Shown piece by piece: positions 2,498-64,000 of a stretch of DNA of 64,000 bases. The position numbers and the translations under genes are program-made. The notes beneath the pieces are model-generated. The model was not told the origin of the DNA, ran no database searches, and saw only the letters and a program-made list of their open reading frames with translations. Source of the DNA: Azolla caroliniana (lineage: Eukaryota > Plantae > Polypodiophyta); assembly GCA_043228905.1 (NCBI GenBank), contig JBHGNT010000009.1, forward strand, positions 4,216,001-4,280,000. The letters are read 5' to 3'. The number at the start of each line of letters is the position of its first letter. Positions within the stretch are counted from its first letter, which is position 1.

Positions 2498-2501
2498 TCT
2501 T

Positions 2502-2519: not shown

Positions 2520-2541
2520 AGAGGCGGCAGAAGAGCAGAAG

Positions 2542-4668: not shown

Positions 4669-4724
4669 AGAGGACTGCCAAGGCGTGGGGCCGCGACAGT
4701 CCGGATGCTCTGGGAAACCCCCAC
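4659..4724 (+). promoter_or_regulatory. Predicted -1 ribosomal frameshift signal (G GAU UUU, 6-nt spacer, stem/pseudoknot)
   Basis: GGATTTT at 4659-4665 directly precedes the ORF1 stop TAG, and the -1 frame is open into pol. Stem GGACTG (4672-4677) / CAGTCC (4697-4702); loop GTGGGG is complementary to CCCCAC (4719-4724). Confidence 0.8.
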
Positions 4725-8147: not shown

Positions 8148-8218
8148 AGACGGGCCGGTTTTCTCCGTCCCAACTCTCTTGGCGCATACCGGAGGATGCG
8201 CGGTTAGGTGGGGGCGGA

Positions 8219-27129: not shown

Positions 27130-27953
27130 TGTTGCGTTGTTACGCGTTGTCGTGAAGAAAACCGTCCATAGGCGGAATCGGCGCACCTAGGCGTGGGTAC
27201 CGGTTCTTCACGCGCGCAAGCTCCAAGTTGTGCATAGAAGCGAGTTAGGAGGATAACCGGCAGGAACGGGCCCTAACACAAGTGGAGACAAAGACCGCGC
27301 GAACAGTCTTTTCGATCGCGCGCGCGAGCAAAGGGACTGTACGAGTCGGCGGCGTAACTACGCGGACGCGTGAAGGACGGAGCGGATCCCTGTTCAAAAG
27401 GGACAGGGGAATAAAGCTGACAGGACGGCCTGCTCGTCGGGCTATAAAAAGAGGAGGAAAGAGCTGTTGCAGATATCTCGCGCGGAGAGGACGAAGTGCT
27501 GTCGGACCGTTTCTGGACGCTTCTCTCTCTGTTTCCTTCCTTCTTGAGCTCCATAGCTTTTCTGTGCAGGGTTCCGAGGAGGCTCGTGCTGCTTCGAGGA
27601 ACGCCCGAGTGCTTCCGGCAGCACCTCCGACCTGCTTCCCCCCCCCCTTTTTGTGCATCAAAGCGAACAAGTATCGGCATCTGTTCGCCGGCTTGTTCGG
27701 TTGTAACCAACCTGAGCCCCATCGAGGGTTGTAGTCGTGTTAGCCATTTTTGTTAATATACATATTTAGTCGTTCGCGTCTGTCTGTGTCGGTGTCTGTT
27801 CGCGTTCTCCGTGCTGAAGGGCCGTGTCCCTGTGTATCCCCGGTCCTGCGTAGCCGGTTCTCTCTCTTTCTCCTCCCTCGCTTGCTCTTTGGTTCGAGAC
27901 CCCCGCGGTCCCGCCTCATCTCCACACGCACTTGCGAAATATCTCGACATCTT

Positions 27954-27971
27954 TGGTGAACCCGACGTGAA
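27954..27971 (+). promoter_or_regulatory. E2 primer binding site, tRNA-Trp
   Basis: TGGTGAACCCGACGTGAA, 4 nt after the LTR end. Confidence 0.88.
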
Positions 27972-27993
27972 AGAGGCGGCAGAAGAGCAGAAG

Positions 27994-33100: not shown

Positions 33101-33599
33101 GAAGCCGATCATGCCGATGGAACGGACGATCTCCTCATGGGCAACGGTCGATTGGAGGGACGAGATGAGCCGGGAGGAGTTGTTGGCCGCGCGTATACGA
33201 CAACTCGAGCGGAGACCGGAGGACGTGGAACTGGCTACGGAGAAGCTCCAGGTGGCGAGGACAAAGAACAAAGCCAGGTTCGACCGAATGCACCGGCTCC
33301 GACCGAAGAAAATCGAAGAAGGTGACTGGGTGCTCGTCTACGACAGCAGCCTCGACAACCAGCACCGAGCCACACGGAAGTTCGCACGAAGGTGGTTCGG
33401 GCCTTACGTGGTACGGAGCGCCAATGACAACGGGACATATCACCTGGCGGAACTCGACGGCACGAGAGTGGCGATACCGGTTGCAGGGAAGCGGATCAAA
33501 GAGTTCAAGAAGCGACACGACGACAAGCCAGACCCGGCTCTTCTAGTCAGCAGTGACGAACGATCCGAAAACGAGGAAGAACCGACGGGCGAGGAATGA
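30111..33599 (+). CDS. pol: E2 ORF2 pol (RT-RNaseH-IN), intact; probably reached by -1 frameshift at 30111-30117
   Basis: 1118-aa ORF from the ATG at 30243, with the frame open back to GGATTTT. All RT, RH and IN motifs present; no chromodomain. Confidence 0.94.
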   Translation, partial: GFLERTAKAWGRDSPDAPGKPHICTIKPCTIGRKFCFSDSGACTMVGITGREKTKTEGRLRACGVLGPVEGINGAVEAVSFDDTLGMLGKVVEEDFNEDRTIPVCSEEMYEVIADFGRGLESERTARVSTKYKTVDRKVRPVAAPLPEGSESWIKGVASDPSLRDRACIGHTFTNETLRELKIGGGGFLLPAEEDRFRRMLGRHGKAFAFSPEEIGCVDPTIVEPMEIFTVPHVPWNLKPISVPRAHIPKLMELLKQKVDMGILEPSSVPYSNRWFTVPKKNGSLRFIQDLQPVNRVTIRNAGIGPTIDEFVEAFAGRSIYSVGDLYSGYDQFQLAVESRDITTMRTPLGLVRMCTLPQGGTNSVAHMVNAMNKVLRDCIPDITMPFLDDIPIKGCPVEEKDETVGPDGCRRFVMAHIDDCEKVLQRLEDAGLTFSGEKSAFGQSEIMVVGHLCGPYGRKPSPAKVEAISAMKPDCSSVTEVRRFLGACAFYHIWIPHYAHVAEPLYGLLRKGRRFEWLDKHKESVRKLKEALSAAPALRKAVYGKGTPVYITVDTSPTGIGWVVNQADEDGNRFPIRFGAKVLSERQRGYAQVKRELWGIVSAVKADKDYLIGTEVIIETDCMPILGMVSGCATPDLAMLRWIAYIKSLDPGIRHISGKDNAMADMLSRVRFDDEGGMISEDEEVGVDFFETAYVTTDGTSTPALNDFDASKYDGEWLQIGGFLKTMTPDASWTKDEANRIRKKAYRFFLRDGYLWKHPNRRNGVPLRVVAMKEDQEELLAAYHDSPWAGHRGTWATFEKLKGKYWWPGQYQDVHQFVTTCESCQMHSIVRHRDELHPTYPPTIHFKWMVDLVTMPMGVGQMRYLVLTREDLTNQVEGRALSNKTTEAVCRFLIEDVICRYGCVGKIVADRGELDAEEAAELFDRLGVKLSLTTAYNPEANGKVERGHGPIVKALVRACRGRVGNWPRLLPYALWADRTTHSSVTGYMPTELMFGQKPIMPMERTISSWATVDWRDEMSREELLAARIRQLERRPEDVELATEKLQVARTKNKARFDRMHRLRPKKIEEGDWVLVYDSSLDNQHRATRKFARRWFGPYVVRSANDNGTYHLAELDGTRVAIPVAGKRIKEFKKRHDDKPDPALLVSSDERSENEEEPTGEE

Positions 33600-34664: not shown

Positions 34665-37600
34665 TTACTCTTCGCCTGCCGGCCCTTCCTCGGCCTCGGA
34701 TCGGTCGTCGCTGCTGTCCAGGAGAATCGGGTCGGGTTCGTCGTCGTGCCGCTTCTTGAAAGCTTTGATCCTCTTCCCGGCCACGGGTATCGCTATTCTC
34801 GTACCGTCGAGTTCCGCCAGATGATACGTCCCGTTGTCGTTGGCGCTCTGTACCGTGTACGGCCCGAACCATCTTCGTGCGAACTTCCGCGTTGCTCGGT
34901 GCTGGTTGTCGAGGCTGCTGTCGTAGACGAGCACCCAGTCACCTTCGTCGATTCTCTTCGGTCGTAGCCGGTGCGTTCGGTCGAACCGGGCTTTGTTCTT
35001 TGTCCTCGCCACCCGGAGCTTCTCCGTAGCCAGTGCCACGTCCTCCGGTCTCCGCTCGAGCTGTCGTATACGCGCGGCCAACAACTCCTCCCGGCTCATC
35101 TCGTTCCTCCAGTCGACCGTTGCCCACGAGGAGATCGTCCGTTCAATCGGCATGATCGGCTTCTGGCCGAACATGAGCTCTGCCGGCATGTACCCGGTTA
35201 CCGAACTGTGCGTGGTCCGGTCTGCCCACAAAGCATAAGGTAGGAGCCGCGGCCAGTCACCGATTCGGCCTCCGCATGCCCGAACCAACGCCTTGACGAT
35301 CGGTCCGTGTCCGCGCTCCACCTTCCCATTCGCCTCCGGATTGTACGCAGTGGTGAGCGAGAGCTTGACCCCCAGCCGGTCGAACCGCTCCGCGGCTTCC
35401 TCGGCGTCCAACTCCCCTCGGTCAGCCACGATCTTCCCGACGCACCCGTACCAGCATATCACGTCCTCGATCAGGAACCGACACACGGCCGCGGTCGTCT
35501 TGTTCTGAAGGGCTCGGCCTTCCACCTGGTTCGTCAGGTCTTCCCGTGCTAGGACCAGATACCGCATCTGTCCTACCCCCATCGGCATCGTCACCAGATC
35601 TACCATCCATTTGAAGTGGATAGTCGGAGGGTACGTAGGGTGAAGCCCGTCCCGGTGTCGGACTATCGAGTGCATCTGACAACTCTCGCAAGTTGACACG
35701 AACCGATGCACGTCCCGGTACAATCCCGGCCACCAGTACTTCCCCTTCAGCTTCTCAAATGTCGCCCACGTTCCACGGTGTCCAGCCCAAGGGCTGTCGT
35801 GGTAGGCCGCCAATAGCTCCTCCTGTTCTTCCTTCATCGCCACCACCCGGAGCGGGACGCCGTTCCTCTTCTTCGGGCGCTTCCACAAATGCCCATCTCG
35901 GAGAAAGAATCGATATGCTTTCTTCCGGATCCGGTTGGCCTCGTCCTTCGTCCATGACGCATCGGGCGTCATTGTCTTCAAAAACCCGCCGATCTGCAGC
36001 CACTCCCCGTCGTACTTGCTCGCGTCGAACTCGTTAAGCGCCGGAGTGCCCATCCCGTCGGTTGTTATGTATGCCGCCTCGAAGAAATCCACGCCGACTT
36101 CTTCGTCTTCCGAAACCATGCCGCCCTCGTCGTCGAACCTCGCCCTCGAAAGCATGTCGGCCATGGCGTTGTCTTTCCCGGAAATGTGTCGTATTTCCGG
36201 GTCCAGGGACTTGATGTACGCTATCCACCTGAGCATCGCCAGGTCCGGAGTCGCGCATCCGGAAACCATACCGAGAATCGGCAGGCAATCCGTCTCGATG
36301 ATCACTTCTGTCCCTATCAGGTAGTCTTTGTCGGCCTTAACCGCCGAAACAATACCCCAGAGTTCGCGTTTAACCTGGGCGTATCCTCGCTGCCGTTCAC
36401 TGAGGACTTTCGCGCCGAATCGGATTGGAAACCGATTGCCGTCCTCGTCTTCCTGGTTCATGACCCATCCGATCCCGGTCGGGCTGGTATCCACCGTTAT
36501 GAATACCGGGGTACCCTTCCCGTATGCCGCCTTCCGGAGTGCCGGTGCCGCTGCAAGGGCCTCTTTCAGCCTCCGGACCGATTCCGCATGCTCGTCTAGC
36601 CATTCGAACCTTCGCCCCTTTTTCAGCAACCCGTACAGTGGCTCCGCGACGTGTGCGTAATGCGGGATCCATATGTGGTAGAACGCGCATGCCCCCAGGA
36701 ATCTCCGTACTTCCGTGACCGAGCTGCAGTCGGGCTTCATCGCGGAGATGGCTTCTACCTTTGCCGGAGACGGTTTCCGGCCATATGGTCCGCACAGGTG
36801 TCCGACCACCATGATTTCTGACTGCCCGAAGGCCGACTTCTCCCCGGAGAAGGTGAGTCTCGCATCCTCTAGCCTTTGCAGCACCTTCTCGCAGTCGTCG
36901 ATGTGCGTCGCCACGAATCGCCGGCATCCGTCCGGCCCGATCGTCTCGTCCCTTTCTTCCACCGGGCATCCCTTGACCGGGATGTCGTCCAGAAACGGCA
37001 TGGTGATGTCCGGGATACAGTCCCTCAGAACCTTGTTCATCGCATTCACCATGTGGGCCACCGAGTTGGTCCCCCCTTGCGGCAGTGTACACATCCGAAC
37101 TAGGCCGAGGGGAGTTCGCATCGTCGTAATGTCTCTGCTCTCCACGGCTAGCTGGAACTGGTCGTACCCCGAGTATAGATCCCCGACCGAGTAAATTGAC
37201 CTTCCGGCGAAGGCCTCCGCGAACTCGTCTATGGTCGGTCCGATCCCTGCGTTCCGAATCGTCACTCGATTGACCGGCTGCAGGTCCTGGATGAAGCGCA
37301 ACGAACCGTTTTTCTTCGGTACGGTAAACCATCGATTCGAATATGGGGCGCTCGACGGCTCGAGAATTCCCATATCAACTTTCTGCCTCAGCAGCTCCAT
37401 CAACTTCGGGATGTGAGCTCTCGGAACCGGGATCGGCTTGAGATTCCATGGTACATGCGGTACCGTGAATATCACCATCGGCTCCACGATCGTCGGGTCA
37501 ACGCACCCGATTTCCTCCGGCGAGAATGCGAAGGCTTTCCCGTGCCTTCCGAGCATTCTCCGAAACCGGTCTACCTCCGCCGGCAGTAGGAACCCGCCCC

Positions 37601-38162
37601 CACCGATTTTGAGCTCTCGGAGCGTCTCGTCGGTAAAGGTGTGTCCTATGCAGGCCGGATCTCGTAGACTAGGGTCCGATGCAACCCCTTCGATTCTCGA
37701 CGCGCTGTCCTCCGGTAAGGGTGCCGCGACTGGCCTTACCTTCCGGTCCACAGTCTTGTACTTGGTGCTCACGTGGGCCGTCCGAACCGACTCGAGCCCT
37801 CGACCGAAGTCCGCGATGACTTCGTACATCTCCTCGGAACACACCGGTATCGTCCGGTCTTCGTTAAGGCCTTCTTCGACTACCTTTCCCAGCATTCCCA
37901 AGGTGTCGTCGAATGAGACCGCCTCCACGGCTCCGTCGATTTCCTCGTCAGGGCCGAGAACTCCGCACGCTCGAAGTCTCCCCTCCGCCTTTCTCTTCTC
38001 TCGGCCGCCGATGCCGACTGTCGTGCACGCTCCGCTGTCGGAGAACAAAAATTCCCTACCTATGGTACAAGGTTTCTTCGGTTTTATCGTACAGGTGTGG
38101 GGTTTTCCCGGGGTGTCCGGACTGTCGCGGCCCCACGCCTTGGCAGTCCTCTCTAAAAATCC
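34665..38162 (-). CDS. pol: E3 ORF2 pol (RT-RNaseH-IN), intact
   Basis: 1127-aa ORF at 38048-34665; slippery site GGATTTT at 38162-38156. Confidence 0.94.
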   Translation of the reverse strand, partial: GFLERTAKAWGRDSPDTPGKPHTCTIKPKKPCTIGREFLFSDSGACTTVGIGGREKRKAEGRLRACGVLGPDEEIDGAVEAVSFDDTLGMLGKVVEEGLNEDRTIPVCSEEMYEVIADFGRGLESVRTAHVSTKYKTVDRKVRPVAAPLPEDSASRIEGVASDPSLRDPACIGHTFTDETLRELKIGGGGFLLPAEVDRFRRMLGRHGKAFAFSPEEIGCVDPTIVEPMVIFTVPHVPWNLKPIPVPRAHIPKLMELLRQKVDMGILEPSSAPYSNRWFTVPKKNGSLRFIQDLQPVNRVTIRNAGIGPTIDEFAEAFAGRSIYSVGDLYSGYDQFQLAVESRDITTMRTPLGLVRMCTLPQGGTNSVAHMVNAMNKVLRDCIPDITMPFLDDIPVKGCPVEERDETIGPDGCRRFVATHIDDCEKVLQRLEDARLTFSGEKSAFGQSEIMVVGHLCGPYGRKPSPAKVEAISAMKPDCSSVTEVRRFLGACAFYHIWIPHYAHVAEPLYGLLKKGRRFEWLDEHAESVRRLKEALAAAPALRKAAYGKGTPVFITVDTSPTGIGWVMNQEDEDGNRFPIRFGAKVLSERQRGYAQVKRELWGIVSAVKADKDYLIGTEVIIETDCLPILGMVSGCATPDLAMLRWIAYIKSLDPEIRHISGKDNAMADMLSRARFDDEGGMVSEDEEVGVDFFEAAYITTDGMGTPALNEFDASKYDGEWLQIGGFLKTMTPDASWTKDEANRIRKKAYRFFLRDGHLWKRPKKRNGVPLRVVAMKEEQEELLAAYHDSPWAGHRGTWATFEKLKGKYWWPGLYRDVHRFVSTCESCQMHSIVRHRDGLHPTYPPTIHFKWMVDLVTMPMGVGQMRYLVLAREDLTNQVEGRALQNKTTAAVCRFLIEDVICWYGCVGKIVADRGELDAEEAAERFDRLGVKLSLTTAYNPEANGKVERGHGPIVKALVRACGGRIGDWPRLLPYALWADRTTHSSVTGYMPAELMFGQKPIMPIERTISSWATVDWRNEMSREELLAARIRQLERRPEDVALATEKLRVARTKNKARFDRTHRLRPKRIDEGDWVLVYDSSLDNQHRATRKFARRWFGPYTVQSANDNGTYHLAELDGTRIAIPVAGKRIKAFKKRHDDEPDPILLDSSDDRSEAEEGPAGEE

Positions 38163-40279
38163 TCTCGGTGTTCGGAACCGAGGGAATCACGGTTTCGTTC
38201 GTGGTTCGGCCTTACCGTCAGAAACTGGACCGAATGGCGCCCGTCTTGGCTTTTGACCCTCGCGTAGGCCGAACCATTGTCCAGCACTTTGGTCTCCATC
38301 CGCGCCGCCGTAATGTACGGTTCTCCCAGAATGACCGGGTGGGAAGACGTCTCCTGCACGAAGAAGTGTTGGTCAATCTCGACGTCGCCAATCTTGACCC
38401 GCACATTCGGACAGGCCCCGTGCAGTTCCTCGGTGGCGCGCGTTGCTGCCCTTATTTTCCACCCGTGCTTGGTGTTGATCGGCCATTTGCCCTTCTTATA
38501 GAAGTCCATGGACATCAAATTGATCTCCGATCCGTGGTCCACCAAAGCTATCACCGGTTCCTGGACATCGCCGATCTTCACCGGGGTTTCCGTGGTCGCT
38601 CGGGCCCAGTGTGGTCTCGAATAGTGGCTTTCCGCCCACTCGTCTCCCAGCGCCATGTCGTCTAGGTGCGTCGTCCGCACTTCCACCGGTCTTTCCGGTT
38701 CTGTCTCCGTCGACAGCCTCTTCCGTTTCACCAAGTCCACGATGGAGTCGTGGAACTCCTTCTTGGCGATTCCCAGCACCTCCCGTAACGACAGCTCCAC
38801 CTTGCTGTCGAGGATCCGTTCCTCCAGGACCTTTCGTAAGTCCGTGGTTCTTTCTATCTCCGTCCCCAGACGGTACCCGCCCTTCTGGGGTTTATCTCGC
38901 GTACCGGCCCCGCCGGCTTCGTCCCGTCGCGGCCCGGACCGGGTCTCGTATCGTTGTGAGGGCCCGGTCGTCCCGGGTTTCCCCACCCGCTTCTCTTCTA
39001 CCAGAGCCTCGTAGTTCCGGCAAGCGGCTTCCACGAAGCCCGTCTTCTCCTCGACGGGGTCGCTCCACCCGGTCATCTCCCGTACCCGTTTCTCCGCACG
39101 GTCCGATTCCTCCCTTTTAAGCCCTGCACCGGCAAGGCCTCCCAGCATCGTCGGCCAGAATCCGGCTTCGCTTTCCCTTCGGGCCTCGCCGCCCCCGACT
39201 CGAATGCCGGCTGACGCCGAGTAGTGGACGGTTTCCGCGTGTCGGGCCGCCGCCTCTTCCATCACCCTTTTCATACCGCCTTTTCCGTCGTTTCAGCTCA
39301 GGGCCCTTCGGGTGTCGCTGGCATGCACCCGTCCTTCCCACAGGTACACCACCCTGTTCCTCAGCGCCTCCGCGAAGTCGCCGCAGTCCTTCCGAATGTG
39401 GCCGACTTCATCGCACCACATGCACCTGTTTCCTGCCGCCGGCCGTCGGTCACGAGCCGGTTCGCCTCCTTCCCTTCGGGCCTGCGCGATTTGGAGGTCC
39501 TTTATCGCCTTTGTCAATTCCTCCAGCGCCGCTCCTCCGGTTGAGCCTCTGACTACGCCGGTCGAAGCCGAACCGGTATCCAACCACTCTCGGGTCTCTT
39601 CCTTTCGCACCTGTGGCGCTGGATCGAGCTTCCTTGCTGCGACCGAGCCCGACCCGGTTGCACCGTTTTCCGCCCATTCTCGCCGTTTGTCGAAACGGCC
39701 ACAGACCTTCCTGACAGCCGCCCAGTCCGTAGTGAGCCCGTCTTCGGTTTCCAGCAAGAAGCCCACTTGCTCCCGATCCCGCTCGTCGACCGACTTGACA
39801 AACAGCAAGACCCGGCTCGTGTCCAGGATGGTTCGGTCAAGCGCCGAAAGGCGCGCAAAGTTTTCCTCGAACTCCCGGAGGAGCGCCGACGCGTTCCTTC
39901 CCTTCCCCGGGGACTCCACCCATTCCATGAACCTTCGCTTCGAAAGCCGGAGCGCGTCGTCCAGCCCGTATTTCTCTAGGAGCCGACCTTCGAACTCCTC
40001 CCAGGTACGGCTCTCCATCCGCACCTCGAGCACCTCCGCGTGGATGCTCGGCATCGCCACTCGGGGAAATCCGGCAAGACGCCTTTCTTCCGGAATGTCC
40101 CGCATCAGCATCTCTGCACCGTAGGACGCCAAATACTTCGTGGCATCCTTCCCATCGAACCGGCCGATCGTGCCGACGACCGCCTCAATAGCTCTGTCGA
40201 GGGCACCGGTGCTCTCGCGCGCATTTACAATCCGATCCACGGCCGAAGCCATGGCCTCTGCGAGATCCGACCCTCTCAT
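38153..40279 (-). pseudogene. gag: E3 ORF1 gag-protease with one nonsense mutation
   Basis: ORFs 40306-39293 and 39274-38153 are in the same frame; CGA>TGA at 39295-39293. Confidence 0.93.
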
Positions 40280-42228
40280 TTCCTGCTCTTCTGCCGCCTC
40301 TTTCACGTCGGGTTCACCAAGATGTCGGGGTTGCTACGCCCTTGCGTGCTGAAAGGAGGAGGGACCACGGGGGTCTTGGACCGAAGAGCAAGAGAGAGAG
40401 AGGAGAAGGAGAGACCCGATTACACAGAACCGAAGATTGCACAGGGACACGGCCCAACAAACAGAGATCACAAACAAACGCCGACACAGATGGACGCAAC
40501 CACGGAAGATATGTACTTATGAATGCAAGAAAATAACAGCTAAAGTGTTACAACCCTCGGTGGGGCACGAAATAGATACTAACGAAAACGAACAGGGCGG
40601 CGAACAGATGCCGACCCCTGTACGTCGCGACGCACGGAAAGGGGAAAACAGGTCGGAGGTGCTGCAGGACGCACTCGGGGCGTTCCACGGAACAGCGCAA
40701 GCCTCCTCGAAACCTGCACAGGTACGCGGTGGAGCAGAAGACAGAGAGAGCAGGAGTGAGAGAGGAGCTTCGAAATCGGTTCGGCAGCACTTCGTCCTCT
40801 CTGCGCGAGATGTCTCACTTCTATTCTCCCTCTTCCTTTTATAGCCCGTCAAGAGGCCGTTTGGCATTAACTGCATACCAACCGAATCTACCCACCTAGG
40901 ATCCTCGTATGTACCTACTTCGTCCTTAGGTACTTCTTGGCGCGCGTGTGCGTGTAGAGCCGTTTCCCCCCCCCACGCCTTGTTCCTCCGATTCCCCCGG
41001 TGGGCGGTTTTCTTCACGACAGCGTGAAGGACGGAGCGGATCCCTGTTCAAAAGGGACAGGGGAATAAAGCTGACAGGACGGCCTGTTCGTCGGGCTATA
41101 AAAAGAGGAGGAAAGAGCTGTTGCAGATATCTCGCGCGGAGAGGACGAAGTGCTGTCGGACCGTTTCTGGACGCTTCTCTCTCTGTTTCCTTCCTTCTTG
41201 AGCTCCATAGCTTTTCTGTGCAGGGTTCCGAGGAGGCTCGTGCTGCTTCGAGGAACGCCCGAGTGCTTCCGGCAGCACCTCCGACCTGCTTCCCCCCCCC
41301 CTTTTTGTGCATCAAAGCGAACAAGTATCGGCATCTGTTCACCGGCTTGTTCGGTTGTAACCAACCTGAGCCCCATCGAGGGTTGTAGTCGTGTTAGCCA
41401 TTTTTGTTAATATACATATTTAGTCGTTCGCGTCTGTCTGTGTCGGTGTCTGTTCGCGTTCTCCGTGCTGAAGGGCCGTGTCCCTGTGTATCCCCGGTCC
41501 TGCGTAGCCGGTTCTCTCTCTTTCTCCTCCCTCGCTTGCTCTTTGGTTCGAGACCCCCGCGGTCCCGCCTCATCTCCACACGCACTTGCGAAATATCTCG
41601 ACAGCGTGTGCGTGGAGAAACGAGGCGGGACCACCGGGGTCTTGAACCGAAGAGCAGGTGATAGAAGGGGAAAGAGAAGGAGAGAGACGCCCGGTCACAT
41701 ATGAGCAAAGAAACACAGGGGCGTGGCCCGTCAACACAGAAGACGCGAATGGACACAGAGACAGGGAGAGACAAGTGTTTGTATATTAACGAATAACAAG
41801 TACACAGCAGAACACGCGAGCGGCTACAACCGAACAGGCCGGCAAACAGATGTCGATGCCTGTTCGTCTGCGCACGAAATGGGGATAGGATGGAGGTGCT
41901 GCCGGAAGCACACAGGCGTTCCTCGAAGCAGCGCGAGCCTCCCGAAACCTGCAGAGAAGAGCAACAAAGAACATGCAGAGGAGAAGCGTTCGGTTCCGGT
42001 CCGACAACACTTCGTCCTCCTGAATGCCCTCCCCTTCTCCCTGCGTCTCCCTCTCCTTTATAGCGTCAAGAAGGGAGCCGTCTCCCTCATTTACTTCCTA
42101 CCTACCGAATCTAACTACCCCGGATCTCTCTCTATACCTAATTCTCTATTATATACATTAAGAGCGTGCACACGTGAAGGGCCGGTTCATGTGCGCTATT
42201 CACCGATTGCGCCAGGGGACGGTTTTCT

Positions 42229-53400: not shown

Positions 53401-54169
53401 AGATGATTGGGTCAACTTACTTTCGCCCGCGGAATTCGCCTACAATAATTCTCTCCATGGATCGACTGGCGTCACTCCCTTCTTTGCCAACTACGGTTTA
53501 CATCCTCGCTTCAACATTTCCCTTCCTACCACTTCCGTGAACCCTTCGGCGGAGGATCGCGCCCGCATTTTGGAAGAACTACATCATGATTTATCCTTGG
53601 AGCTTAGTCTTGCTAGTGAACGATACAAGAAGCAGGCTGATCCCCATCGATCTTCCACTCCACACTTTGTCGTTGGAGACATGGTCTGGTTGTTACGTCG
53701 ACACATCTTTACTACTCGTCCATGTGCGAAACTTGATTACAAGAAGTTGGGACCATTCCGTATCATCGAGTGCATCAATCCCGTTGCCTTCCGGCTCGCC
53801 CTTCCATCCCACTTCCGGATTCACGATGTTTTTCATGTCTCCCTCCTCGAACCCCATTATGCTTCACAACTCCCAGGACGTCAAGCCCCACCACCACCAC
53901 CTGTGCAATTGACGACAGGGGAGGAATATGAGGTCGACCAAATCCTTGACTCGCGTTGGCACCGTCGACACTTGCAATACCTTGCCCTATGGAGGGGTTA
54001 CCCCATGTCTGAGGCCACATGGGAACCATCAGCAAATTTACAAAATGCCCTAGAGGTCGTCCAAGATATTCATCACCGATATCCCCACAAACTAGCGGCC
54101 GATTTGGGAAGGCGGCGTAAGAGGGGGGATAATGTCAAGATTCGAACTCTTGACACGACCATGTTATAA
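50402..54169 (+). pseudogene. gag-pol: G2 truncated gag (50402-~50732) fused to pol (PR-RT-RH-IN-chromodomain) with stops and frameshifts
   Basis: ALLDSGA protease, IYLDDILIFS RT, VETDASDFAIG RH, GHFG...CEVC integrase, LGPF, YEVDQILDSR...YLALWRGY...TWEP chromodomain. Confidence 0.92.
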
Positions 54170-54490
54170 TCTAGTATTATGAGTTAACCAAGATATCTAG
54201 TACTAGTTATGTATGTAATTGGTCCATGTTATTTTGCTAGCATCATGTGCATAGTTGCTTCCTTGTAGTATTTACACTTGGCACATGCATGCATACCTAC
54301 ATGCTCTATTGTAGATTCACATGCGTGCAACAAGTGTGCATGCCATGTAGTATAAATAGAGGAGTTCACCTTGAAGGAATTCAAGGTGAACAACACCTGT
54401 TATGGAGTCTATCCTTTAATACTATCTTCTTTCTTGTCCATTTGGTTATATTCTTGCTTGTCTCTTGAGTTTATGATCCGTGACAGCTAT

Positions 54491-54926
54491 TAACCAATTG
54501 TCCCCTTCTAGACCCGATTTTTGGATTTGGGTTCTAGCATGGTAGACATAGTCTTCTAGCGAGGAAAATTTCCGACTAGAGAGGTTCATTAAAGCTTGTG
54601 TTGCCTCGGTTTGAGATGGAGATTGCAGAAATTGACCCTTGAAAACTGTGACAAAATCTGTCCATGTATCGGGCAATTTCCCCAAAGTACGAAGCCCACG
54701 CCACCAAGCGGCGGCCTTACCCCCTAGTTCTCGACCGACATATGCAATCTTCGTACTATCTGGCGTGGGATAGAGCTGAAAATGAGATTCCCATCGGCCT
54801 AGCCACTTGCAGATTGCTTCTTCGGTTCTTTCCTTTTTGTCTCCCGTAAATGGCTTAACGACAAACGATGGTTCACCTTGTCGCTCAGTAGGTCTATTAG
54901 TCTCACGTTGTAAACTAATGACACGT
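54491..54926 (-). pseudogene. gag: G1 gag, N-terminal piece
   Basis: LPDTWTDFVTVFKGQFL...SLEDYV retrotransposon Gag motif; continuous with 49998 across the GCTAT TSD. Confidence 0.8.
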
Positions 54927-56924
54927 TGTCGCTTTATTACGCGCGTGCGTGTAGAAGGGCGGAACCACAGGGGTCTTGGACTAGGGAGTGGAGGAGAAAG
55001 ATTAGCTCAAGAGGAGAAGAGAACGAATATGATATTATGATAGAAGAAGAAGATGCAATCAAGATACTCAACAAGAAGTTCTATTAAGAAATGAATGATT
55101 ACAACAAATGGTGGCCGCCATGGCCGCACCAAACGACTATATGAAAAACCCTAAAGGAAAACCCAAGAAGAAAACCGTAACCGAAACCCTAACCCTAAAA
55201 CGAAATGGGAAGAAGTAGAACCCTCGACTAAGTGGTATACCTTACTTACACAAAATAGGCAACCCCTCCACAAAGGGCGATCCCTTCCTTTGATAGAACA
55301 AGGAGAGGGATGCGTTACAATGTGGGACCAATCCCGACTTTCATGGGATCGTCTATCCCGACTTGGCTATTCTTCGGCGCCATAAAGGTGCCCTCGATAT
55401 TCACACTAAATGTACATGGGTGCGTACACACGCTGCACCCCGCCGATGTAGCCAATGTTTCCCGGTTTTCGCCTCTGGCCGAAATTCTTCACGACATCCG
55501 CCCCCACCTAACTGCACGTCCACCGGTACGTGCCAATCTGGTTGAAGGGTGAGAGATTTCGGCCGGTGAGAAACCGGTCTCCTGTGATCCGCATCTCGGC
55601 TCGCTGCCGGTTTGATCCGTCAGCTTGGAGTCTTCCTTCGTGCTCGCCTCCCCGTAGGCTCGTTCGACCCGTCGATGGGTCCTCTGCCGCGATCTCTGTA
55701 GTACGCGTTCTTCCGGTGGCCCTTGTTTGGCCGTATGAACGCCCCGCTTCCCGCCGTATGCCCGATGTCCTCCGCTTGAGGCATGCCCGTGGTGGCCCGC
55801 TTGGCCTCTGTTGTCCAATCGTGATGTCCCGATGGTGTTTCACGTCGCCTTCGTCCTTCCGCCGCCACCTTCCTTCTCCATGGTCTTACATCGCCGCGTC
55901 GGTCCGAACCGCCATGGTCTCCGGAACGGTGTGGAGGATCCCTTTCCGACGTTCCCCGAGCTCTCCTTCCTGCTCCGGCACCCCCCCCGTGTGCCACATA
56001 CCCTCGTCCGTTGTTTGGCACTGCCTGTACCGCGCTCCGGTTCATTGCACGTCTTGTCGACCCCTTTCTGGCCAGATCGTGCATCACCGCTCACCCATAT
56101 ACCGGTGTTCTTTGCATCTGAGGAACACCCCGTAGTAGCCCGCTTGGCCCTTCCCGTCTTCATGCTGCTGCAATAGGTCCTAAGTCTTCCGCTTGCCGTC
56201 GTCCCCTCGCCCCCACCAGCTTCTCATCCCGGCTTGCCGTGTCAGTCTTCGTTACTTCGACGAAGCTACGAGGATCTACGAAGCGAGTGTGGAGGATCCT
56301 CCTTCGGCCTCTCTTGCCATCCCCTGACTCCGACCCTGTGCAGTCCACTAGGCACTTGTCCCGTCGTTCCCGGCACCTCCTCTGTTCGGCACCGCCCGTG
56401 CCGAACACCGTCCCGTAGTCACACTTCGATCCGGCCCGGGATGGCCACTTGCGAGACTCTTGTTCTGTCCAAGGTGTGCCTTTCTAGTCTGACACACCTC
56501 TCCGTGTTTGCCCTTACCGGCTCCTTCCGAAACCTCGTGTTGTCGGGTCCCGTTCCCTGCCGCCACCGTCCTTCTCCCTCGGTCTCACGTTGCCACGTTG
56601 GCCGAACTGCCGGAGCCTCCGGATCGGTGTGAGGGTCCCATAGGACCGGACTCCGTTTCTATGCTTGCCGAAATTCGGGTGTCTTTTGTTTGAGTCCCTC
56701 CCGGACTCTCCTCGTGTCTTCCGCGTAGCTGGGTCCCGTTTCCCGCCGCCACCTTCCTTCTCCCTCAGTCTTACGTTGCCACGATGGCAGAACAACCGGA
56801 GTCTCCGGAACCGGTGTGAGGATCCCGTAGGACCGGACTTCCTTACGCCCATTGTCTTCGTTGTTGGGATTTTCGGTCCCTCCGGATGGGATGTCCGGAG
56901 ATGAATGACGGCAAGCCTGGTTGC

Positions 56925-57128
56925 GGTTACGGAACCAGAGGATGAAGAGAAGACCCCGGCTACGGAGCCGGATGACGAAGAGAAGACCCCGGCTACGGAG
57001 CCGGATGACGAAGACCCGGCTACGGAGCCGGATGACGAAGACCCGGCTACGGAGCCGGATGATGAAGACCCCGGCTACGGAGCCGGATGACGAAGACCCG
57101 GCTACGGAGCCAGATGATGAATGTACCC
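56925..57128 (+). repeat. Tandem array of 27/28/33-bp units in U3 of the C4 5' LTR (7 units)
   Basis: GGCTACGGAGCCGGATGACGAAGA(GAAGAC)CCC repeats. Confidence 0.93.
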
Positions 57129-57608
57129 GGAGAGAGATCCGGATGCGGGGACATATTTGTGAATATGTTTGCCAAGGGCCCTTGAGGCTATATTTGTAAA
57201 TAGCCCGAAAGTCATATGTGTATAAATATGACTTAGGGCAAACAGTTTATGTTGTTGCTTATTTTTCTGTTTTCACTCAGAGAGAGTAAAGAGAGCAGCC
57301 GAGAGAGAGAGACGAAGAGGTCGTTGCCTCTGTGTATTGCCGCCGCCTGTGGCGAAGACAGTGAGTTCAAGGTTGTTGCCTTGAAGCTTCACCATTGTAA
57401 ATCTCTGTTCATAGTGATAGTTGGAGTTTGAGGACTCCCGTGGTTTTTTCCCATTTAGGGTTTTCCACGTAAAATATCTTGTGTACTCTTCTTTCTATTG
57501 TCTTCGTGTACTTTGTATTTCCTATTTTCTGTGAGTTGATCCTATTCCTCGGTCGTGGCCGAGCACCGTGAGCAACAAATTGGTATCAAAGCGACGGTAA
57601 CACAGAAA

Positions 57609-60600
57609 ATGGAAGGCGGCGGTAGTGGGCCTCCGGGCATGATGGTGTTGAACTCACAGAACTACGCCGACTGGAAGATAAAGATGGAAGACCTTCTCAT
57701 CGTCCGAGACCTGTACGAACCGATCGACAATGCCGAGATACCCAAGGGGGTAATAGAGTCGGAGTGGAAGCTCCTGAACCGGAAAGCCGTAGCGACGATC
57801 CGGCAATATGTCGATGTAAGTGTCCTGCAACATGTGGCGAACGATACGAACGCCTATGAGATGTGGAAGAAGCTGTCGGGCCTTTATGAGAGGAAGAATG
57901 CGTTGAACCGGACCTCCCTGATGAGGAAGATAGTGAACCTCAAGTACCGAGACGGCGAGAATATGGTGGAACACGTGAGCACGTTCATGGGATTCGTGAA
58001 CCAGCTTGCGGCGATCAAGTTCCCGTTGGAGGATGCAATGCAAGCCATCATTCTGATGTGTACATTGCCGGAAAGCTGGGAGAACTTGGTGGTGACTCTC
58101 AGCACCTCCTGCACCGAAGATAACTTGTCCCTACAAACGGTAAAGACAAGTATTTTGAATGAAGAAGCGCGTCGGAGAGATAAAGAACCGGCCTCCGATC
58201 CGAAGATGCTGCTTACCGAATCGGATCGGGGAAGACAATGGAACCGGAGTCCGCAAAGACGGGAGAAGTCGGGGACCCGGTCGCAGTCAAGAGGAAGACC
58301 CACATGTTTCCACTGTGGGAAGCCGGGGCACTTCCGGAAGAATTGTCGGCATTACCGAAAGGACAACGGAGCCGACGACACCGATTCGAAGAAGTCACCG
58401 GAACGAAACGGTGCATACCGGGGAGCCACGGACCGGAGAGGTTCGGATCGGCGAGGGCAGGACCGGAAAGGAACGACGGCACTCGCGGCAAGTGAAGAAG
58501 AGATAATGCTCATTACCGAAGAGAGGGAGCTGAATCTTGCCGGTGTAGAGATGACCTGGGTGGTCGATTCCGGAGCGTCGTTCCACCTGACCCCGGAGAA
58601 GAAATACTTCTCATCCTACACAGCCGGTGAGCATGGCTGTGTCCGGATGGGAAATGAAGGTACATGCCGGATTGCCGGCATAGGAGACGTGTGGCTAATG
58701 ACATCAACCGGATGCAAGATGCTGCTGAAGGATGTACGACACGTTCCGGAGGTCCGATTGAACCTGATTTCGGCCGGGAGGCTAGACGATGAAGGCTACA
58801 CGGGTAGCATCCGGAACGGTGTCATGAAGTTCAGCAAAGGGAGCCTGGTAGTGGCTCGGGCCCGGAAGGTCAACACACTGTACCTGATGAATTCCCGGCT
58901 ATGTCCGGAGGAGCTGAACGTGGCAGCCGATACTGCCGGTGAGTTGTGGCACAAGAGACTGTGTCACATGAGTGAGAAGGGGATGAAGAGGCTTGCAGAA
59001 GACAACCTTATTCCAGTGAAGCATGTGCACCTGGAGAAGTGCACCGATTGCCTGGCCGGTAAGCACAACCGGACCTCCTTCCGCTCAAGACCACCGATGA
59101 GACGTAGTGTACCATTGGAGTTGGTACACACTGATGTGTGCCAGGTAGAAACGAAGTCACATGGCGGAGCCCAGTACTTCGTAACATTCATAGATGACCA
59201 TAGCCGGAAGCTGTGGACGGCACCGTTGAAGACAAAGGACCAAGTATTGTCCGTCTTCAAAGAACTCCACGCGAGAGTGGAAAGGGAATCCAGCAAGAAG
59301 CTGAAAGCGATACGAGTAGATAATGGAGGAGAATACCGAGGGCAATTTGAGGAGTATTGCCGTTCGATGGGAATTCGGCTCGAGTTTACTGTGCCGAAGA
59401 CGCCGGAACTGAACGGGCTGGCCGAGAGGATGAACCGGACCATAATGGAGAGGGTCCGGAGTATGTTAGCACATGCGAAATTACCCAAGGGACTTTGGGC
59501 TGAGGCAATGTCGACGGCGACATATGTGATAAATAGATCACCCTTAGTACCCCTGGATGGAGACACGCCACAGAGAGTGTGGACCGGTAAGGAAGTGTCC
59601 TACCGGCATCTGAAGGTGTTCGGGTGTCTCGCATACGTGCATGTGGCAAAGGACTGGAGAGGAAAGTTAGATCCAAAGACCCGGCCATGCATATTCCTCG
59701 GTTACGGCGACGACGAGTTCGGCTACCGAGTATGGGACCCGGTCGACAAGAAGATATTCAGGAGTCGAGATATCATCTTCATGGAGGACAAGACACTCGC
59801 CGACTGGGAGTCGGAGAAGAAGATGAAGAGCTCCAAGTCGACCGGTGAGAATCAACTCTACGAGGAGCAGTCCCGACCGGCAAGGGACCGGTTAGCACTC
59901 GAGGATCCGGCCGAAGACGGTGAAGAAACAGAACCGGCCGAGGAAGATGAAACTGATACCGGAACCGGCCCCGATCCCGAAATGGATTCGGATGAAGAGG
60001 AAACGGAGGAGCCGGTTACCGAAGCTCCGGAACGGAGATATCCTCTAAGAGAGAGAAGGGCCCCCCGGAGATTTCCGGAACCAGAGCACTTGCTGCTAAC
60101 CGACGAGGGGGAGCCGGAGAGTCTTGAAGAAGCAAAGCTTGACACCCATAGCCGCAGGTGGTTAAGTGCCATGCAGGAGGAGATGGATTCTCTGCATAAG
60201 AATCACACATATGAACTTGTGGAGTTGCCGAAAGGAAAGCGGGCACTTCGAAACAAGTGGGTGTTCAAGCTGAAACCGGGAGATACCGGAAGCCCCGCGA
60301 GATACAAAGCCAGGATCGTGGTGAAGGGGTTCCAGCAGAAGAAGGGCGTCGACTTCGACGAGATATTTGCCCCGGTAGTGAAGATGACCTCCATCCGGAC
60401 GGTGCTGAGCATAGCGGCAAGCATGGACCTCGAGGTAGAACAGATGGACGTAAAGACGACATTCCTTCACAGTAACCTCGAAGAAGAGATCTACATGCAG
60501 CAACCGGAAGGATTCGAGAAGAAAGGGAAGGAGCACCTGGTATGCCGGTTGAAGAAGAGCCTTTACGGACTGAAGCAGGCTCCCCGGTAGTGGTACCGGA

Positions 60601-61682
60601 AGTTCGACTCCTTCATGACCGACGAAGGGTACCACAAAACGCAGTCCGATCACTGCGTGTTTGTGAAGAAGTTCGAAGGAGGAGACTTTCTAATACTCCT
60701 CCTGTACGTGGACGACATGTTGATCGTGGGACGGGACCAGGTCAAGATACGGATGCTGAAGAAGGCTCTTCACCGAACCTTCTCAATGAAGGACCTGGGT
60801 CCGGCGAGGCAAATACTAGGCATGCACATCATCCGGGACCGGAAGAAGAAGCAGTTGTGGCTGTCACAGGAGAAGTACGTGACAAAGGTGCTTCACCGGT
60901 TCAACATGTCGGAAGCAAGACCGGTCGGGTCAACCCTCCCGGCAAACTGCAAGTTGTCCAGCAAGCAAAGCCCCAAGACAAAGGCTGAGAAGGAGGACAT
61001 GATGAAAGTACCATATGCCTCTGCCGTCGGAAGCTTGATGTACGCAATGGTGTGTACAAGACCGGACATTGGATACGCAGTCGGAGTGGTGAGCCGGTAT
61101 ATGAGTAATCCCGGCAAGGAGCATTGGAACGCGGTCAAATGGATACTCCGATACCTGAAAGGCACAACAAACGTGTGCCTTCGATTCGGCTCCGGTAAGC
61201 CCGAACTCGACGGCTTTACCGATTCGGATATGTCGGCTGATGCAGATACCAGCCGGTCCACATCAGGGTATGTGATGACGTATGCAGGGGGAGCTGTTTC
61301 GTGGCAGTCGAGGCTGCAGAAGACGGTTGCACTGTCAACCACGGAGGCGGAGTACATGGCGGCTGTTGAAGCCGGCAAGGAAATAATATGGATGAAGGAC
61401 TTCATTAGAGAGCTCGGTATCCGGCAGGAGGAGTACCGACTCTACTGCGACAGTCAGAGTGCCATCCACCTTGCGAATAATGCGGCCTACCATTCCCGGA
61501 CGAAGCACATCCAGCGGAGATACCACTGGATCCGGGAAAGGATAGAAGACAAGGAGTTCGTGCTGACGAAGATCCACACGGACGAGAACGGGTCGGATAT
61601 GCTGACCAAGGTACTTACACCCGACAAGCTGGAAGCATGCCAGAAGAGGATCGGATTGGAGAGACATCCCATGCCGAAGTGA
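57609..61682 (+). pseudogene. gag-pol: C4 gag-pol polyprotein with a single in-frame stop in RT
   Basis: One frame from the ATG at 57609 to the TGA at 61682, except TAG at 60588-60590 (LKQAPR*WY, normally Q). CCHC, DSG, HHCC/DDE, YVDD and RNase H motifs present. Confidence 0.95.
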
Positions 61683-61755
61683 AGGGGGAGTTTGTTGGGA
61701 TTTTCGGTCCCTCCGGATGGGATGTCCGGAGATGAATGACGGCAAGCCTGGTTGC

Positions 61756-61986
61756 GGTTACGGAACCGGAGGATGAAGAGAAGACCCCGGCTACGGAGCC
61801 GGATGACGAAGACCCGGCTACGGAGCCGGATGACGAAGAGAAGACCCCGGCTACGGAGCCGGATGACGAAGACCCGGCTACGGAGCCGGATGACGAAGAC
61901 CCGGCTACGGAGCCGGATGATGAAGACCCCGGCTACGGAGCCGGATGACGAAGACCCGGCTACGGAGCCAGATGATGAATGTACCC
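61756..61986 (+). repeat. Tandem array in U3 of the C4 3' LTR (8 units)
   Basis: Same array as the 5' LTR with one extra 27-bp unit. Confidence 0.93.
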
Positions 61987-62435
61987 GGAGAGAGATCCGG
62001 ATGCGGGGACATATTTGTGAATATGTTTGCCAAGGGCCCTTGAGGCTATATTTGTAAATAGCCCGAAAGTCATATGTGTATAAATATGACTTAGGGCAAA
62101 CAGTTTATGTTGTTGCTTATTTTTCTGTTTTCACTCAGAGAGAGTAAAGAGAGCAGCCGAGAGAGAGAGACGAAGAGGTCGTTGCCTCTGTGTATTGCCG
62201 CCGCCTGTGGCGAAGACAGTGAGTTCAAGGTTGTTGCCTTGAAGCTTCACCATTGTACATCTCTGTTCATAGTGATAGTTGGAGTTTGAGGACTCCCGTG
62301 GTTTTTTCCCATTTAGGGTTTTCCACGTAAAATATCCTGTGTACTCTTCTCTCTATTGTCTTCGTGTACTTTGTATTTCCTATTTTCTGTGAGTTGATCC
62401 TATTCCTCGGTCGTGGCCGAGCACCGTGAGCAACA

Positions 62436-62651
62436 TTCGTCACCTCGCCACCACCGTCAGTATCTTGGTCTTACGTCGACCGCGTTGCCGACTGCCGAAG
62501 TCTCTAGATCCGGTGTGAAGGATCCTCCGTAGACCGCCCATCTGTAGCCCTTGCCTTCGTCACCTCGCCGCCACCGTCAGTATCTTGGTCTTACGTCGAC
62601 CGCGTTGCCGACTGCCGAAGTCTCTAGATCCGGTGTGAAGGATCCTCCGTA
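62436..62651. repeat. 120-bp tandem duplication inside E6
   Basis: 62461-62520 is identical to 62581-62640; period 120. Confidence 0.93.
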
Positions 62652-63565
62652 GGCCTCTCTTGCCTTCTCGACCCTGTCCCGGGTCGTCCTTTTCCGCATG
62701 CCGAGAGGGCGGTTTACTCCGCACCCTTTCCCGTGGTACCGACATACCGTGTCCTCGGCCTCTTCGTAGGCCTGCTCTCTTCCTCCCTCCTGGAATGGTC
62801 ATCCGGGAGTCCGCTCCGCCCGGTTCTCGTCCGGGTCCGTTCGTCCTTCTCCGGATTGCTGAGTCCCGTTCTCCTGTCGCCACTGATCTCCCTTATAGGA
62901 CTCACGCCGGCACTCGGGCCTGCAGCCGGATCGGTGTAAGGAATCCCATAGGACCGGCTTTCATTCTCTTTCCAAATCTCGACCTTTGCCCGGTCGGTCT
63001 TTCTCCCCATGTAAAAGAGGGCGGCTCGTCCCGCACCCCCTTCCGTATCGGCACCTTTATCCCGAATCCGGCCTCGATCGAACGATCCACGACCGGATTT
63101 TGCTCCATACGAATCGGAATGCCGATCCCCTCGTGCCGTGTTCGTCCTCGGCCTCCTCGCAGGCCGTTTCCCATCCGTCTTCGCTGGCATCGTGCCAGGA
63201 CTCCTCGGTACCGCCATCCATCTCCTCGGTCTTACATGGGCATACGGGCCAAATTGCTGAGTTCTCTGGAATCGGGTCCGTGGGCTTTCGTCCGCTCCTT
63301 CCCCATATCGTGTCGTCGGTGATTCTTGGTCTATCGTCGTCGCCTTCCTCCGCTTGAGACTCACGTGGGCACTCGGGCCCGACTGCCATCGTCTCGGGAG
63401 CAAGTGTGGGAAGACACAAAGAATCGCCCGTCCGTTTTACGCCCTTGTCCGTAGCCACCGACTCTTCGTGGTCGGCGGTCGTCTTCTTACCGATCGCGCA
63501 AGCCCCGTCTGGGCTTGCTTCCCCAATGACCGGGATCTTGGGCTGACACGCCCGAAACCGCTGTC

Positions 63566-64000
63566 CTAACGTTCCGATTCCGCGATCGGTATCTCGACCT
63601 CGTCCTTGGCCGTTCTATCTCTGCAAGTCGAGAGGGCGTTTCGTTCCGCACCCTCTCCCGTGGTACCGTCGTACCGATCTTCCGCCGTCGCGTGGGGCAA
63701 GTCCGTCTTCTCAGTCTCGGCTTGCGGCCTCCGTCTTTCCACCTCCTCGAGCATCGCCTCGAGAGCTGCATACGCCTCCGCAATCTTGGCCCCAACACCA
63801 ACCCTTGCCAACTCTCCCTGCCGTTCGGCCTCTTCCCACTGTGATGGCACGCCGTCGCGTCCCTTCCTCTTAGCCTTCTCGGCTCGCTCTTTGTCTAGCC
63901 GTTGGCACACCCTTCCGACCTTCGACCAGTCCTCCATAAGTCCATTCGCTCCGTCATCGTCTTCGAGCTCAATACCGATGGCTTCCCGTTCCGCTCGGTC
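63566..64000 (-). pseudogene. gag: E6 Gag-related reading frame (partial)
   Basis: Motif similarity to E1-E4 Gag (ED..GL..DW..V..VC.R.DK); starts outside the window. Confidence 0.7.

What the first reader, a model, noticed from the sequence alone, without database searches (positions are those of the whole stretch)
54927..64000. Pol-less, gag-derived satellite element of the CpG-targeting family
Seen: after removing C4, only about 2.5 kb separates the Gag-like segment (64000-63566) from the PPT, versus about 5 kb in autonomous copies. I see no protease, RT, RNase H or integrase motif there, only GC-rich repeated modules. E6 keeps the family's cis signals: TGTCG...CGACA termini, the PPT, the covarying pre-PPT structure, the U5 GACCCC-N-GTGGT motif and an ACGT target. 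Its Gag and LTR are strongly diverged, so it is not a recent deletion product. Known: gag-only non-autonomous LTR elements (TR-GAG type) exist in angiosperms. Inference: a long-separate parasite lineage that borrows E-family Pol, and whose Gag might interfere with helper particles.
Basis: partly seen in the sequence, partly recalled or inferred. Interest (0 to 1): 0.7.

Follow-up and report, generated by a model that had tools for sequence, protein, structure and literature searches.

The report
Capsid-only parasite retrotransposon that switches helpers
This is one broken copy of a large family of plant jumping genes that keep only a capsid gene with a long repeat-built tail and likely borrow their copying enzymes from complete relatives; the general design is known from wheat and coffee, but here one branch carries the ends and half the capsid of a second helper family, which likely records a switch of helper.

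Summary
Beyond the window lie a matching 570-bp 5' LTR (8 differences), a primer site matching a genomic tRNA-Trp and an ACGT duplication. No protease, RT, RNase H or integrase remnant was found in 75 internal regions. E6's subfamily has at least 459 copies. Its frame is 479 codons: a capsid (about 40% identical to the helper's, dN/dS 0.16-0.39 between subfamilies) plus an acidic tail, with no zinc knuckle. E6's own frame breaks at codon 310. The 'GC-rich modules' are repeats that are protein-coding in sister subfamilies, where one frame of up to about 1,420 codons runs from primer site to PPT. One sister subfamily has the LTR, PPT and capsid N-lobe of a second autonomous lineage joined to the parasite's C-lobe and tail. 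The helper lineage is Phygy-like (NCGN target, tRNA-Trp). The closest known system is wheat RLG_Quinta/RLG_Cereba, then TR-GAG. Interference by the Gag is untested and runs against the pattern of domain loss. Verdict: new variant of a known kind.

The parts
54923..54926 (-). ACGT target-site duplication, 3' copy; the 5' copy flanks the 5' LTR outside the window
54927..55496 (-). 3' LTR, 570 bp. The 5' LTR is at G000:C9:4280533-4281102 (window-equivalent 64533-65102), 8 differences in 570. First 313 bases resemble subfamily A (85%), the rest subfamily C (76%)
54964..54975 (-). U5 motif GACCCC-T-GTGGT, within the last 55-60 LTR bases shared with the E-lineage helpers (79%)
55497..55509 (-). Polypurine tract, same as in E1, E2 and L062
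55514..55533 (-). Pre-PPT hairpin, 6-bp stem and 8-base loop, with two-sided changes at pairs 3 and 5
55852..55939 (-). Decayed tail-repeat module (non-coding here), E 5e-7
56557..56634 (-). Decayed tail-repeat module, E 3e-8
56740..56822 (-). Decayed tail-repeat module, E 1e-8
56861..62435 (+). C4, a nested Ty1/copia element with ACGAA duplication and one in-frame stop in pol; not part of E6
62439..62644 (-). Two tandem decayed tail-repeat modules (62559-62644, 62439-62524), E 1e-12 and 9e-12
62867..62945 (-). Decayed tail-repeat module, E 5e-9
63057..63880 (-). Acidic low-complexity tail of the family frame (residues 206-479) with two repeat modules (63334-63412, 63210-63275); in this copy cut by a stop at 63566-63568 and a frameshift next to it; family stop at 63057-63059
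63881..64000 (-). End of the capsid C-lobe (residues 166-205). Start codon (window-equivalent 64495) and tRNA-Trp primer site lie beyond the window edge in L011

Best explanation
E6 is a dead copy of a long-lived family of LTR retrotransposons that carry a capsid gene and no pol, and that likely replicate inside particles containing the Gag-Pol of Phygy-like autonomous elements. Shown: paired LTRs, NCGN 4-bp duplications, tRNA-Trp primer site, PPT and hairpin shared with a helper lineage; hundreds of copies in at least four subfamilies; a two-lobed capsid under purifying selection; no zinc knuckle; a repeat-built tail that is non-coding after codon 480 in E6's subfamily but open to the PPT in young sisters; one subfamily that is a mosaic with a second autonomous lineage. 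Inferred: (1) the RNA is co-packaged with helper RNA and copied and integrated by helper RT and integrase (about 0.9); (2) the mosaic arose by template switching and marks a change of helper (about 0.75); (3) the capsid N-lobe works as a docking part that joins helper particles while the tail, translated along the element's own RNA, holds that RNA in cis in place of a nucleocapsid (about 0.5). On this reading the protein serves the parasite's own spread.
For: 5' LTR, primer site and ACGT found as predicted. The primer site is complementary to a genomic tRNA-Trp(CCA) gene. Pattern counts: 459 (subfamily A), 72 (B), 198 (C), 724 (D plus some of its helper), 913 exact for the E1-E3 type; reversed-pattern controls 0. 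24 of 39 fetched A loci gave both LTRs, 93.4-98.6% identical, 4.7-5.4 kb; 13 of 22 scored have an exact 4-bp duplication, all 13 with central CG. No pol in 75 internal stretches. AlphaFold model of residues 1-265 (pLDDT 81) matches Arc, copia, PEG10, PNMA2 and Ty3 capsids, best Z 10.9, single lobes rmsd 1.8-3.1. Capsid dN/dS between subfamilies 0.16-0.39 at dS 0.6-1.5. In A, shared non-deamination variants give 0.37 (capsid) and 0.49 (tail), against 0.92-1.31 and 0.57-2.11 in the shifted frames. One frame from start to PPT in 13 of 16 complete B copies (751-1,421 codons) and 8 of 13 D copies; the L108 tail has 0 stops in 1,216 codons against 24 and 24 in the other frames and at least 20 in 500 shuffles. 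D's N-lobe groups with the L058/L139 autonomous lineage (97/94), its C-lobe with the satellites; identity flips at about 320 bases after the primer site, the lobe linker, and L147 has a further patch 95-100% identical to L058. D's PPT, U5 end and LTR start are L058-type. N-lobe kept but C-lobe not detected in 15 of 17 C and 6 of 17 D copies. B, C and D tails end in a basic stretch.
Against: No RNA, protein or particle data. The A and B N-lobes are only about 40% identical to the E-lineage N-lobe, which may be too distant for co-assembly. E6's own subfamily stops at codon 480 (33 of 33 copies) and has no basic end, yet is abundant, so a full-length basic tail is not required. Amino-acid selection on B and D tails is weak or absent (0.6-1.2), so only the open frame is clearly kept. 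For the A capsid the single-versus-shared contrast is not significant (p 0.056). Only 1 of 11 complete C copies has an unbroken frame (they are older). Some 'C-lobe missing' calls are frameshifts or truncations (L104, L109, possibly L156). D's N-lobe may simply have hitch-hiked with the adjacent LTR and primer site. Foldseek gave no match at E<=0.001 and the aligner warns that Z under about 13 can be generic for helical proteins.
Confidence: 0.62

Rival explanations
1. Mutualist Gag donor, as proposed for wheat RLG_Quinta: the element supplies extra working Gag that both partners use to build particles.
For: Two-lobed capsid kept under purifying selection in subfamilies A, B and most of D. Helpers here encode Gag-protease and Pol in overlapping frames. 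The model is stated for Quinta (PMC11302176, section 5 read).
Against: No zinc knuckle in 28 of 28 long satellite frames or L017, while autonomous L139 has one. The C-lobe is lost in frame in most C copies and some young D copies. Tails of up to 1,200 disordered residues are an unlikely bulk shell component (inference).
Confidence: 0.15
2. The frame is kept mainly so that ribosomes run to the end of the RNA and protect it from decay or silencing; the tail protein itself is largely irrelevant.
For: B and D tails keep the frame through length changes of up to 2 kb but show dN/dS near 1. In B the frame ends at the PPT in any of three registers.
Against: The capsid shows amino-acid selection over deep splits. 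Subfamily A has about 1.9 kb of non-coding sequence after its stop and still reached at least 459 copies. This rival can hold for the tail together with the best explanation.
Confidence: 0.13
3. The Gag is an interfering factor that limits helper particles, like yeast Ty1 p22 or Drt2.
For: Diverged capsid without nucleocapsid; the C-lobe model matches Drt2 among other capsid C-lobes (Z 6.3).
Against: p22 and Drt2 are C-lobe products (abstract starts only), whereas here the N-lobe is kept and the C-lobe is lost. The element depends on helper particles, and helpers and parasites both have copies with 99-100% identical LTRs.
Confidence: 0.08
4. A recent deletion or one-off rearrangement of an E-type element.
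For: None found.
Against: Hundreds of copies, four subfamilies, about 40% capsid identity to E2, DNA similarity to helpers confined to the ends.
Confidence: 0.01

Closest known systems
RLG_Quinta with RLG_Cereba in wheat (Heuberger et al. 2024, PMC11302176; abstract and sections 5 and 6 read)
   Same: Long-lived non-autonomous partner encoding only a diverged Gag plus a domain of unknown function; primer site, PPT and LTR termini shared with the helper; several Gag lineages; recombination ascribed to template switching.
   Different: Helper there is a centromeric chromovirus, here Phygy-like. Quinta shares half its LTR with the helper, these only about 55-60 bases of U5. The recombination described there is between Quinta lineages; here one subfamily took parts from a second autonomous lineage. 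A repeat tail open to the PPT and loss of the C-lobe are not described in the sections read; figures and supplements not seen.
TR-GAG elements (Chaparro et al. 2015, PMC4350172; parts 2 and 4 of 6 read)
   Same: LTRs, primer site, PPT, duplication, a single Gag frame, no pol, multi-copy.
   Different: Defined as under 4 kb with 5-bp duplications and a Gag-profile hit; these are mostly 4.6-5.7 kb (D about 3.1-3.7 kb), have 4-bp NCGN duplications and miss the Pfam Gag cut-off. No helper was identified for TR-GAG1.
Phygy clade of non-chromovirus Ty3/gypsy (Neumann et al. 2019, PMC6317226; passages, section 9 and one supplementary table row read)
   Same: 4-bp NCGN duplication, tRNA-Trp primer site (81% of Phygy), no chromodomain, short autonomous elements.
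   Different: Described from Physcomitrella at 7.7-10.0 kb; the helpers here are about 7.1-7.4 kb. No non-autonomous partner is mentioned in what I read.
Ty1 p22/p18 and Drt2 restriction factors (PMC4599808, PMC8458377, PMC10951436, PMC12624411; search listing and abstract starts only)
   Same: Gag-derived product lacking the rest of the machinery.
   Different: C-lobe products that restrict; not mobile parasites. Here the C-lobe is the dispensable part.

Membership tests
TR-GAG | Paired LTRs, primer site, PPT and target duplication | tested here: met
TR-GAG | Single Gag frame, no RT or other pol domain | tested here: met
TR-GAG | At least two copies | tested here: met
TR-GAG | Length under 4 kb | tested here: not met
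   E6 about 4.6 kb without C4; subfamily A 4.7-5.4 kb; the paper's HMM pipeline allowed 1-6 kb
TR-GAG | Gag profile hit at E < 1e-5 and 5-bp duplication | tested here: not met
   Retrotrans_gag E 0.03 and 0.053, under cut-off; duplication is 4 bp. GyDB profiles were not available
Quinta-type autonomous/non-autonomous pair | Same primer site as the helper | tested here: met
Quinta-type autonomous/non-autonomous pair | Same LTR termini and PPT as the helper | tested here: met
   A, B (and C with small PPT changes) match the E lineage; D matches L058
Quinta-type autonomous/non-autonomous pair | 3' half of the LTR conserved with the helper | tested here: not met
   A, B, C share only about 55-60 bases of U5 with E3, E4 and L062; D shares its whole LTR with L139 at 69%
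Quinta-type autonomous/non-autonomous pair | Transcription and co-expression with the helper | not testable with these tools
   no usable RNA data
Phygy (helper lineage) | 4-bp NCGN duplication | tested here: met
Phygy (helper lineage) | tRNA-Trp primer site | tested here: met
Phygy (helper lineage) | RT-RNase H-integrase order, no chromodomain | tested here: met
   Pfam scan of E2 Pol
Phygy (helper lineage) | Placement with reference Phygy RT/integrase in a tree | not testable with these tools
   No REXdb sequences held; nearest named relatives are liverwort (Riccia) elements at up to 69% over RT-RNase H. Hence 'Phygy-like'
Ty1 p22/Drt2-type restriction factor | Product is the capsid C-lobe alone | tested here: not met
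   N-lobe kept, C-lobe often lost
Ty1 p22/Drt2-type restriction factor | Inhibits helper transposition | not testable with these tools
   needs an experiment

The most novel reading that the evidence does not exclude
A modular parasite of retrotransposon particles: a capsid N-lobe acts as a docking tag, a disordered repeat tail translated across the whole internal region replaces the nucleocapsid and tethers the element's own RNA in cis, and the parasite changes helper by swapping its LTR ends and N-lobe for those of another autonomous lineage at the lobe linker.
Probability: 0.3. Interest if true: 0.72.

Novelty: new variant of a known kind. Interest (0 to 1): 0.5.

Why it matters
Gag-only LTR elements are known, but what their Gag does and how they choose a helper is open (stated in PMC4350172 and PMC13570524, passages read). 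This genome holds a natural series: one parasite clade with subfamilies that keep or lose the capsid C-lobe, keep or silence the long tail, and pair with either of two helper lineages, with very young copies of parasite and helper. That makes helper specificity and cis-packaging testable by sequencing and biochemistry. The family also escapes standard annotation, since the frames miss the Pfam cut-offs, although the four start patterns total about 1,450 hits beside 6,181 primer-site hits genome-wide (different stringencies; not a clean fraction).

Tried and rejected
Pol remnants: tblastn and HMMs, none. Pfam on the long frames of L108, L128 and L137: no family. Protein atlas on tail residues 205-479: no usable hit, which shows neither absence nor novelty. 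Complex prediction of helper and satellite capsids: no answer, score 0.00, alignments not used; no evidence either way. Expression: no RNA holder listed; the four runs laid are contigs of uncertain type and show only family presence in two of them. A second selected frame after the stop in subfamily A: no frame was consistently selected in four blocks (one of 12 contrasts p 0.03) and majority stops occur in 11 of 12 block-frames. One search's hairpin census was out of register and was redone. The C-lobe tree holds four rows whose C-lobe is deleted; their clade is an artefact. Whether the clade occurs in other hosts: unnamed metagenome proteins P0008 and P0004 have best scored matches here of only about 70% and 73-84%, suggestive but only top candidates were scored. 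Literature searches without a description of this family: 'Phygy + target site duplication + tRNA', 'Physcomitrium patens/RLG1/non-autonomous/Phygy' (none), 'Phygy + moss', 'gag-only/nonautonomous/retrotransposon/capsid', 'lacking pol + purifying selection' (none), 'fern/bryophyte/non-autonomous LTR/Gag/NCGN'; subscription journals, Repbase-type libraries, figures and preprint supplements were not covered.
Full report
1. The observation. On the minus strand E6 runs from beyond the window edge to 54927 and is split by a copia element, C4 (56861-62435, ACGAA duplication). The neighbouring genome stretch (L011) holds the predicted 5' end: a 570-bp LTR differing from the 3' LTR at 8 positions, ACGT on both outer sides, and a primer site followed by a start codon. 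The primer site is complementary to the 3' end of a genomic tRNA-Trp(CCA) gene (L065). Without C4 the element is about 4.6 kb. Protease, RT, RNase H, integrase and the nucleocapsid region of the helper were not found in 31 internal stretches by tblastn or in 75 by lineage-specific HMMs, best E 0.73.

2. The family. A DNA search returned 40 scored full or near-full matches at 92-100%; a 27-base pattern across primer site and start codon gives 459 hits with one mismatch. I fetched 39 of these loci: 24 gave both LTRs (93.4-98.6% identical, 4.7-5.4 kb). Of 22 scored (2 dropped for mis-called ends), 13 have exact 4-bp duplications, all NCGN; 8 others differ at one base. The family frame is 479 codons, unbroken in 6 of 34 copies where the start was located, and codon 480 is a stop in 33 of 33 aligned copies. 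Residues 1-205 are about 40% identical to the E2 Gag and fold like a two-lobed retrotransposon capsid; the rest is acidic and low-complexity, with no zinc knuckle. Shared variants show purifying selection in the coding frame of capsid and tail but not consistently in shifted frames or after the stop (capsid contrast p 0.056, tail p 0.0016).

3. The wider clade. A primer-site 14-mer has 6,181 hits. I sampled 40 hits on one contig that were outside the listed matches of the two known patterns. Every Gag with pol behind it was 28-42% identical to the satellite capsid; nine had a satellite-type Gag (46-84%) and no pol in their own internal region. Twenty more loci each were fetched for three sister subfamilies, B, C and D. 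B is very young (LTRs 99.1-100%) and 13 of 16 complete copies have one frame from start to PPT, 751-1,421 codons, although internal length ranges from 2.3 to 4.3 kb. D has 8 of 13 such copies; C is older, with 1 of 11. The L108 tail has no stop in 1,216 codons, against 24 in each other frame and at least 20 in every one of 500 shuffles. A DNA profile built from 23 in-frame repeat units of these tails finds eight modules in E6, two inside the family frame and six after the stop, and none in five autonomous elements, C4 or 30 shuffles. The GC-rich modules are therefore tail repeats that have fallen out of frame in E6's subfamily. Between subfamilies the capsid has dN/dS 0.16-0.39. With liverwort Gags as outgroup, satellites A and B form one clade (100/100) sister to the E lineage (86/97).

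4. Helper matching and a switch. A, B and C share the U5 end, PPT and LTR start of the E lineage; D shares those of a second autonomous lineage, L058/L139, and its whole LTR at 69%. In trees D's N-lobe groups with L058/L079/L139 (97/94) while its C-lobe stays on the satellite side of a 100/99 split. Sliding identity flips about 320 bases after the primer site, at the lobe linker, in 3 of 3 D copies examined, and L147 carries an extra patch 95-100% identical to L058. E6's own LTR is a mosaic of A-like and C-like halves. Template switching needs two RNAs in one particle (established knowledge, recalled; also invoked for Quinta), so these mosaics are the best indirect evidence of co-packaging. 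The C-lobe is not detected in 15 of 17 C and 6 of 17 D copies that keep the N-lobe, in frame in those inspected.

5. Mechanism. Shown: anatomy, copy number, selection on the capsid, an open frame in young sisters, mosaic structure. Inferred: helper RT and integrase copy and insert the element, which explains the NCGN targets of an element with no integrase. Less certain: the N-lobe docks the protein on helper particles and the tail holds the element's own RNA in place of a nucleocapsid. Against this last step, subfamily A lacks the basic tail end, the A and B N-lobes are far from the helper's, and tail residues in B and D evolve almost neutrally. Rivals are a Gag donor, frame-keeping for RNA stability, and interference; the last fits the domain losses worst.

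6. What is known. The target and primer match Phygy (4-bp NCGN, tRNA-Trp in 81%; PMC6317226); the nearest named Pol relatives are liverwort elements; earlier unchecked notes call the host a fern. Formal Phygy membership could not be tested. Gag-only LTR elements are TR-GAG (PMC4350172), whose size, duplication and profile criteria are not met here. The closest system is wheat RLG_Quinta, a 28-35 million-year-old Gag-plus-unknown-domain partner of RLG_Cereba (PMC11302176). A sugar-beet survey lists 28 Gag/protease-only families and frequent template switching (PMC13570524, passages). The Physcomitrium paper checked (PMC7466625, passages) has no occurrence of 'non-autonomous' or 'gag'. I found no description of this family, of a repeat tail open to the PPT, or of a lobe-linker helper swap in the searches listed under Tried and rejected; figures, most supplements and subscription papers were not seen.

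7. Verdict. Real, well supported, and richer than the window shows, but of a known general kind. New variant; interest 0.5. The bold reading, a modular docking-tag parasite that changes helper, has probability about 0.3.

Noticed in passing
window 54446-54926 (-) and L011 about 2700-4500: E6 sits inside the Gag frame of another element (Retrotrans_gag E 2e-7, Ty3_capsid E 3e-6). Upstream lie about 1.6 kb of AT-rich sequence and a likely LTR end with a tRNA-Met-like primer site (label recalled); the frame stops after about 220 codons near the LTR at 54130-54486.
   Followed up: partly
L075 and L089 (G000:C1:4179495-4188495, 7753628-7762628): Gag related to the L060/L080 autonomous lineage with no pol behind it; L075 has a 2.6-kb internal region with an acidic repeat frame resembling the satellite tail. 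Possibly a fifth subfamily matched to a third helper.
   Followed up: partly
window 2488-8144, 27757-33596, 34668-40333: The autonomous E elements encode Gag-protease and RT-RNase H-integrase in two overlapping frames, so Pol likely needs a frameshift placed after the protease.
   Followed up: no
L097-L116: In subfamily B the long frame ends at the PPT or just inside the LTR in any of three registers, so the last residues differ among young copies.
   Followed up: partly
L087, L088, L070 C-terminal ends: The tails end in a Trp/Arg-rich stretch that recurs in B, C, D and in proteins P0004 and P0010; function unknown.
   Followed up: no
window 9011 and L011, L091, L079: Phygy-like elements and satellites are often nested in each other and in copia LTRs at NCGN sites; E1 (1706-9010) sits in a C4-type LTR at an ACGT.
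   Followed up: no
L065 7942-8016 and 8182-8254: A tRNA-Trp gene and a tRNA-His gene lie 165 bases apart on opposite strands.
   Followed up: no
window 56924-57145 and 61755-62003: C4's LTRs contain a short tandem repeat array whose copy number differs between the two LTRs (717 against 744 bp).
   Followed up: no
G000:C3:11236222-11242043; L022, L048: Tandem arrays of satellite copies sharing LTRs (three D-type starts spaced 2,895 bases apart).
   Followed up: no
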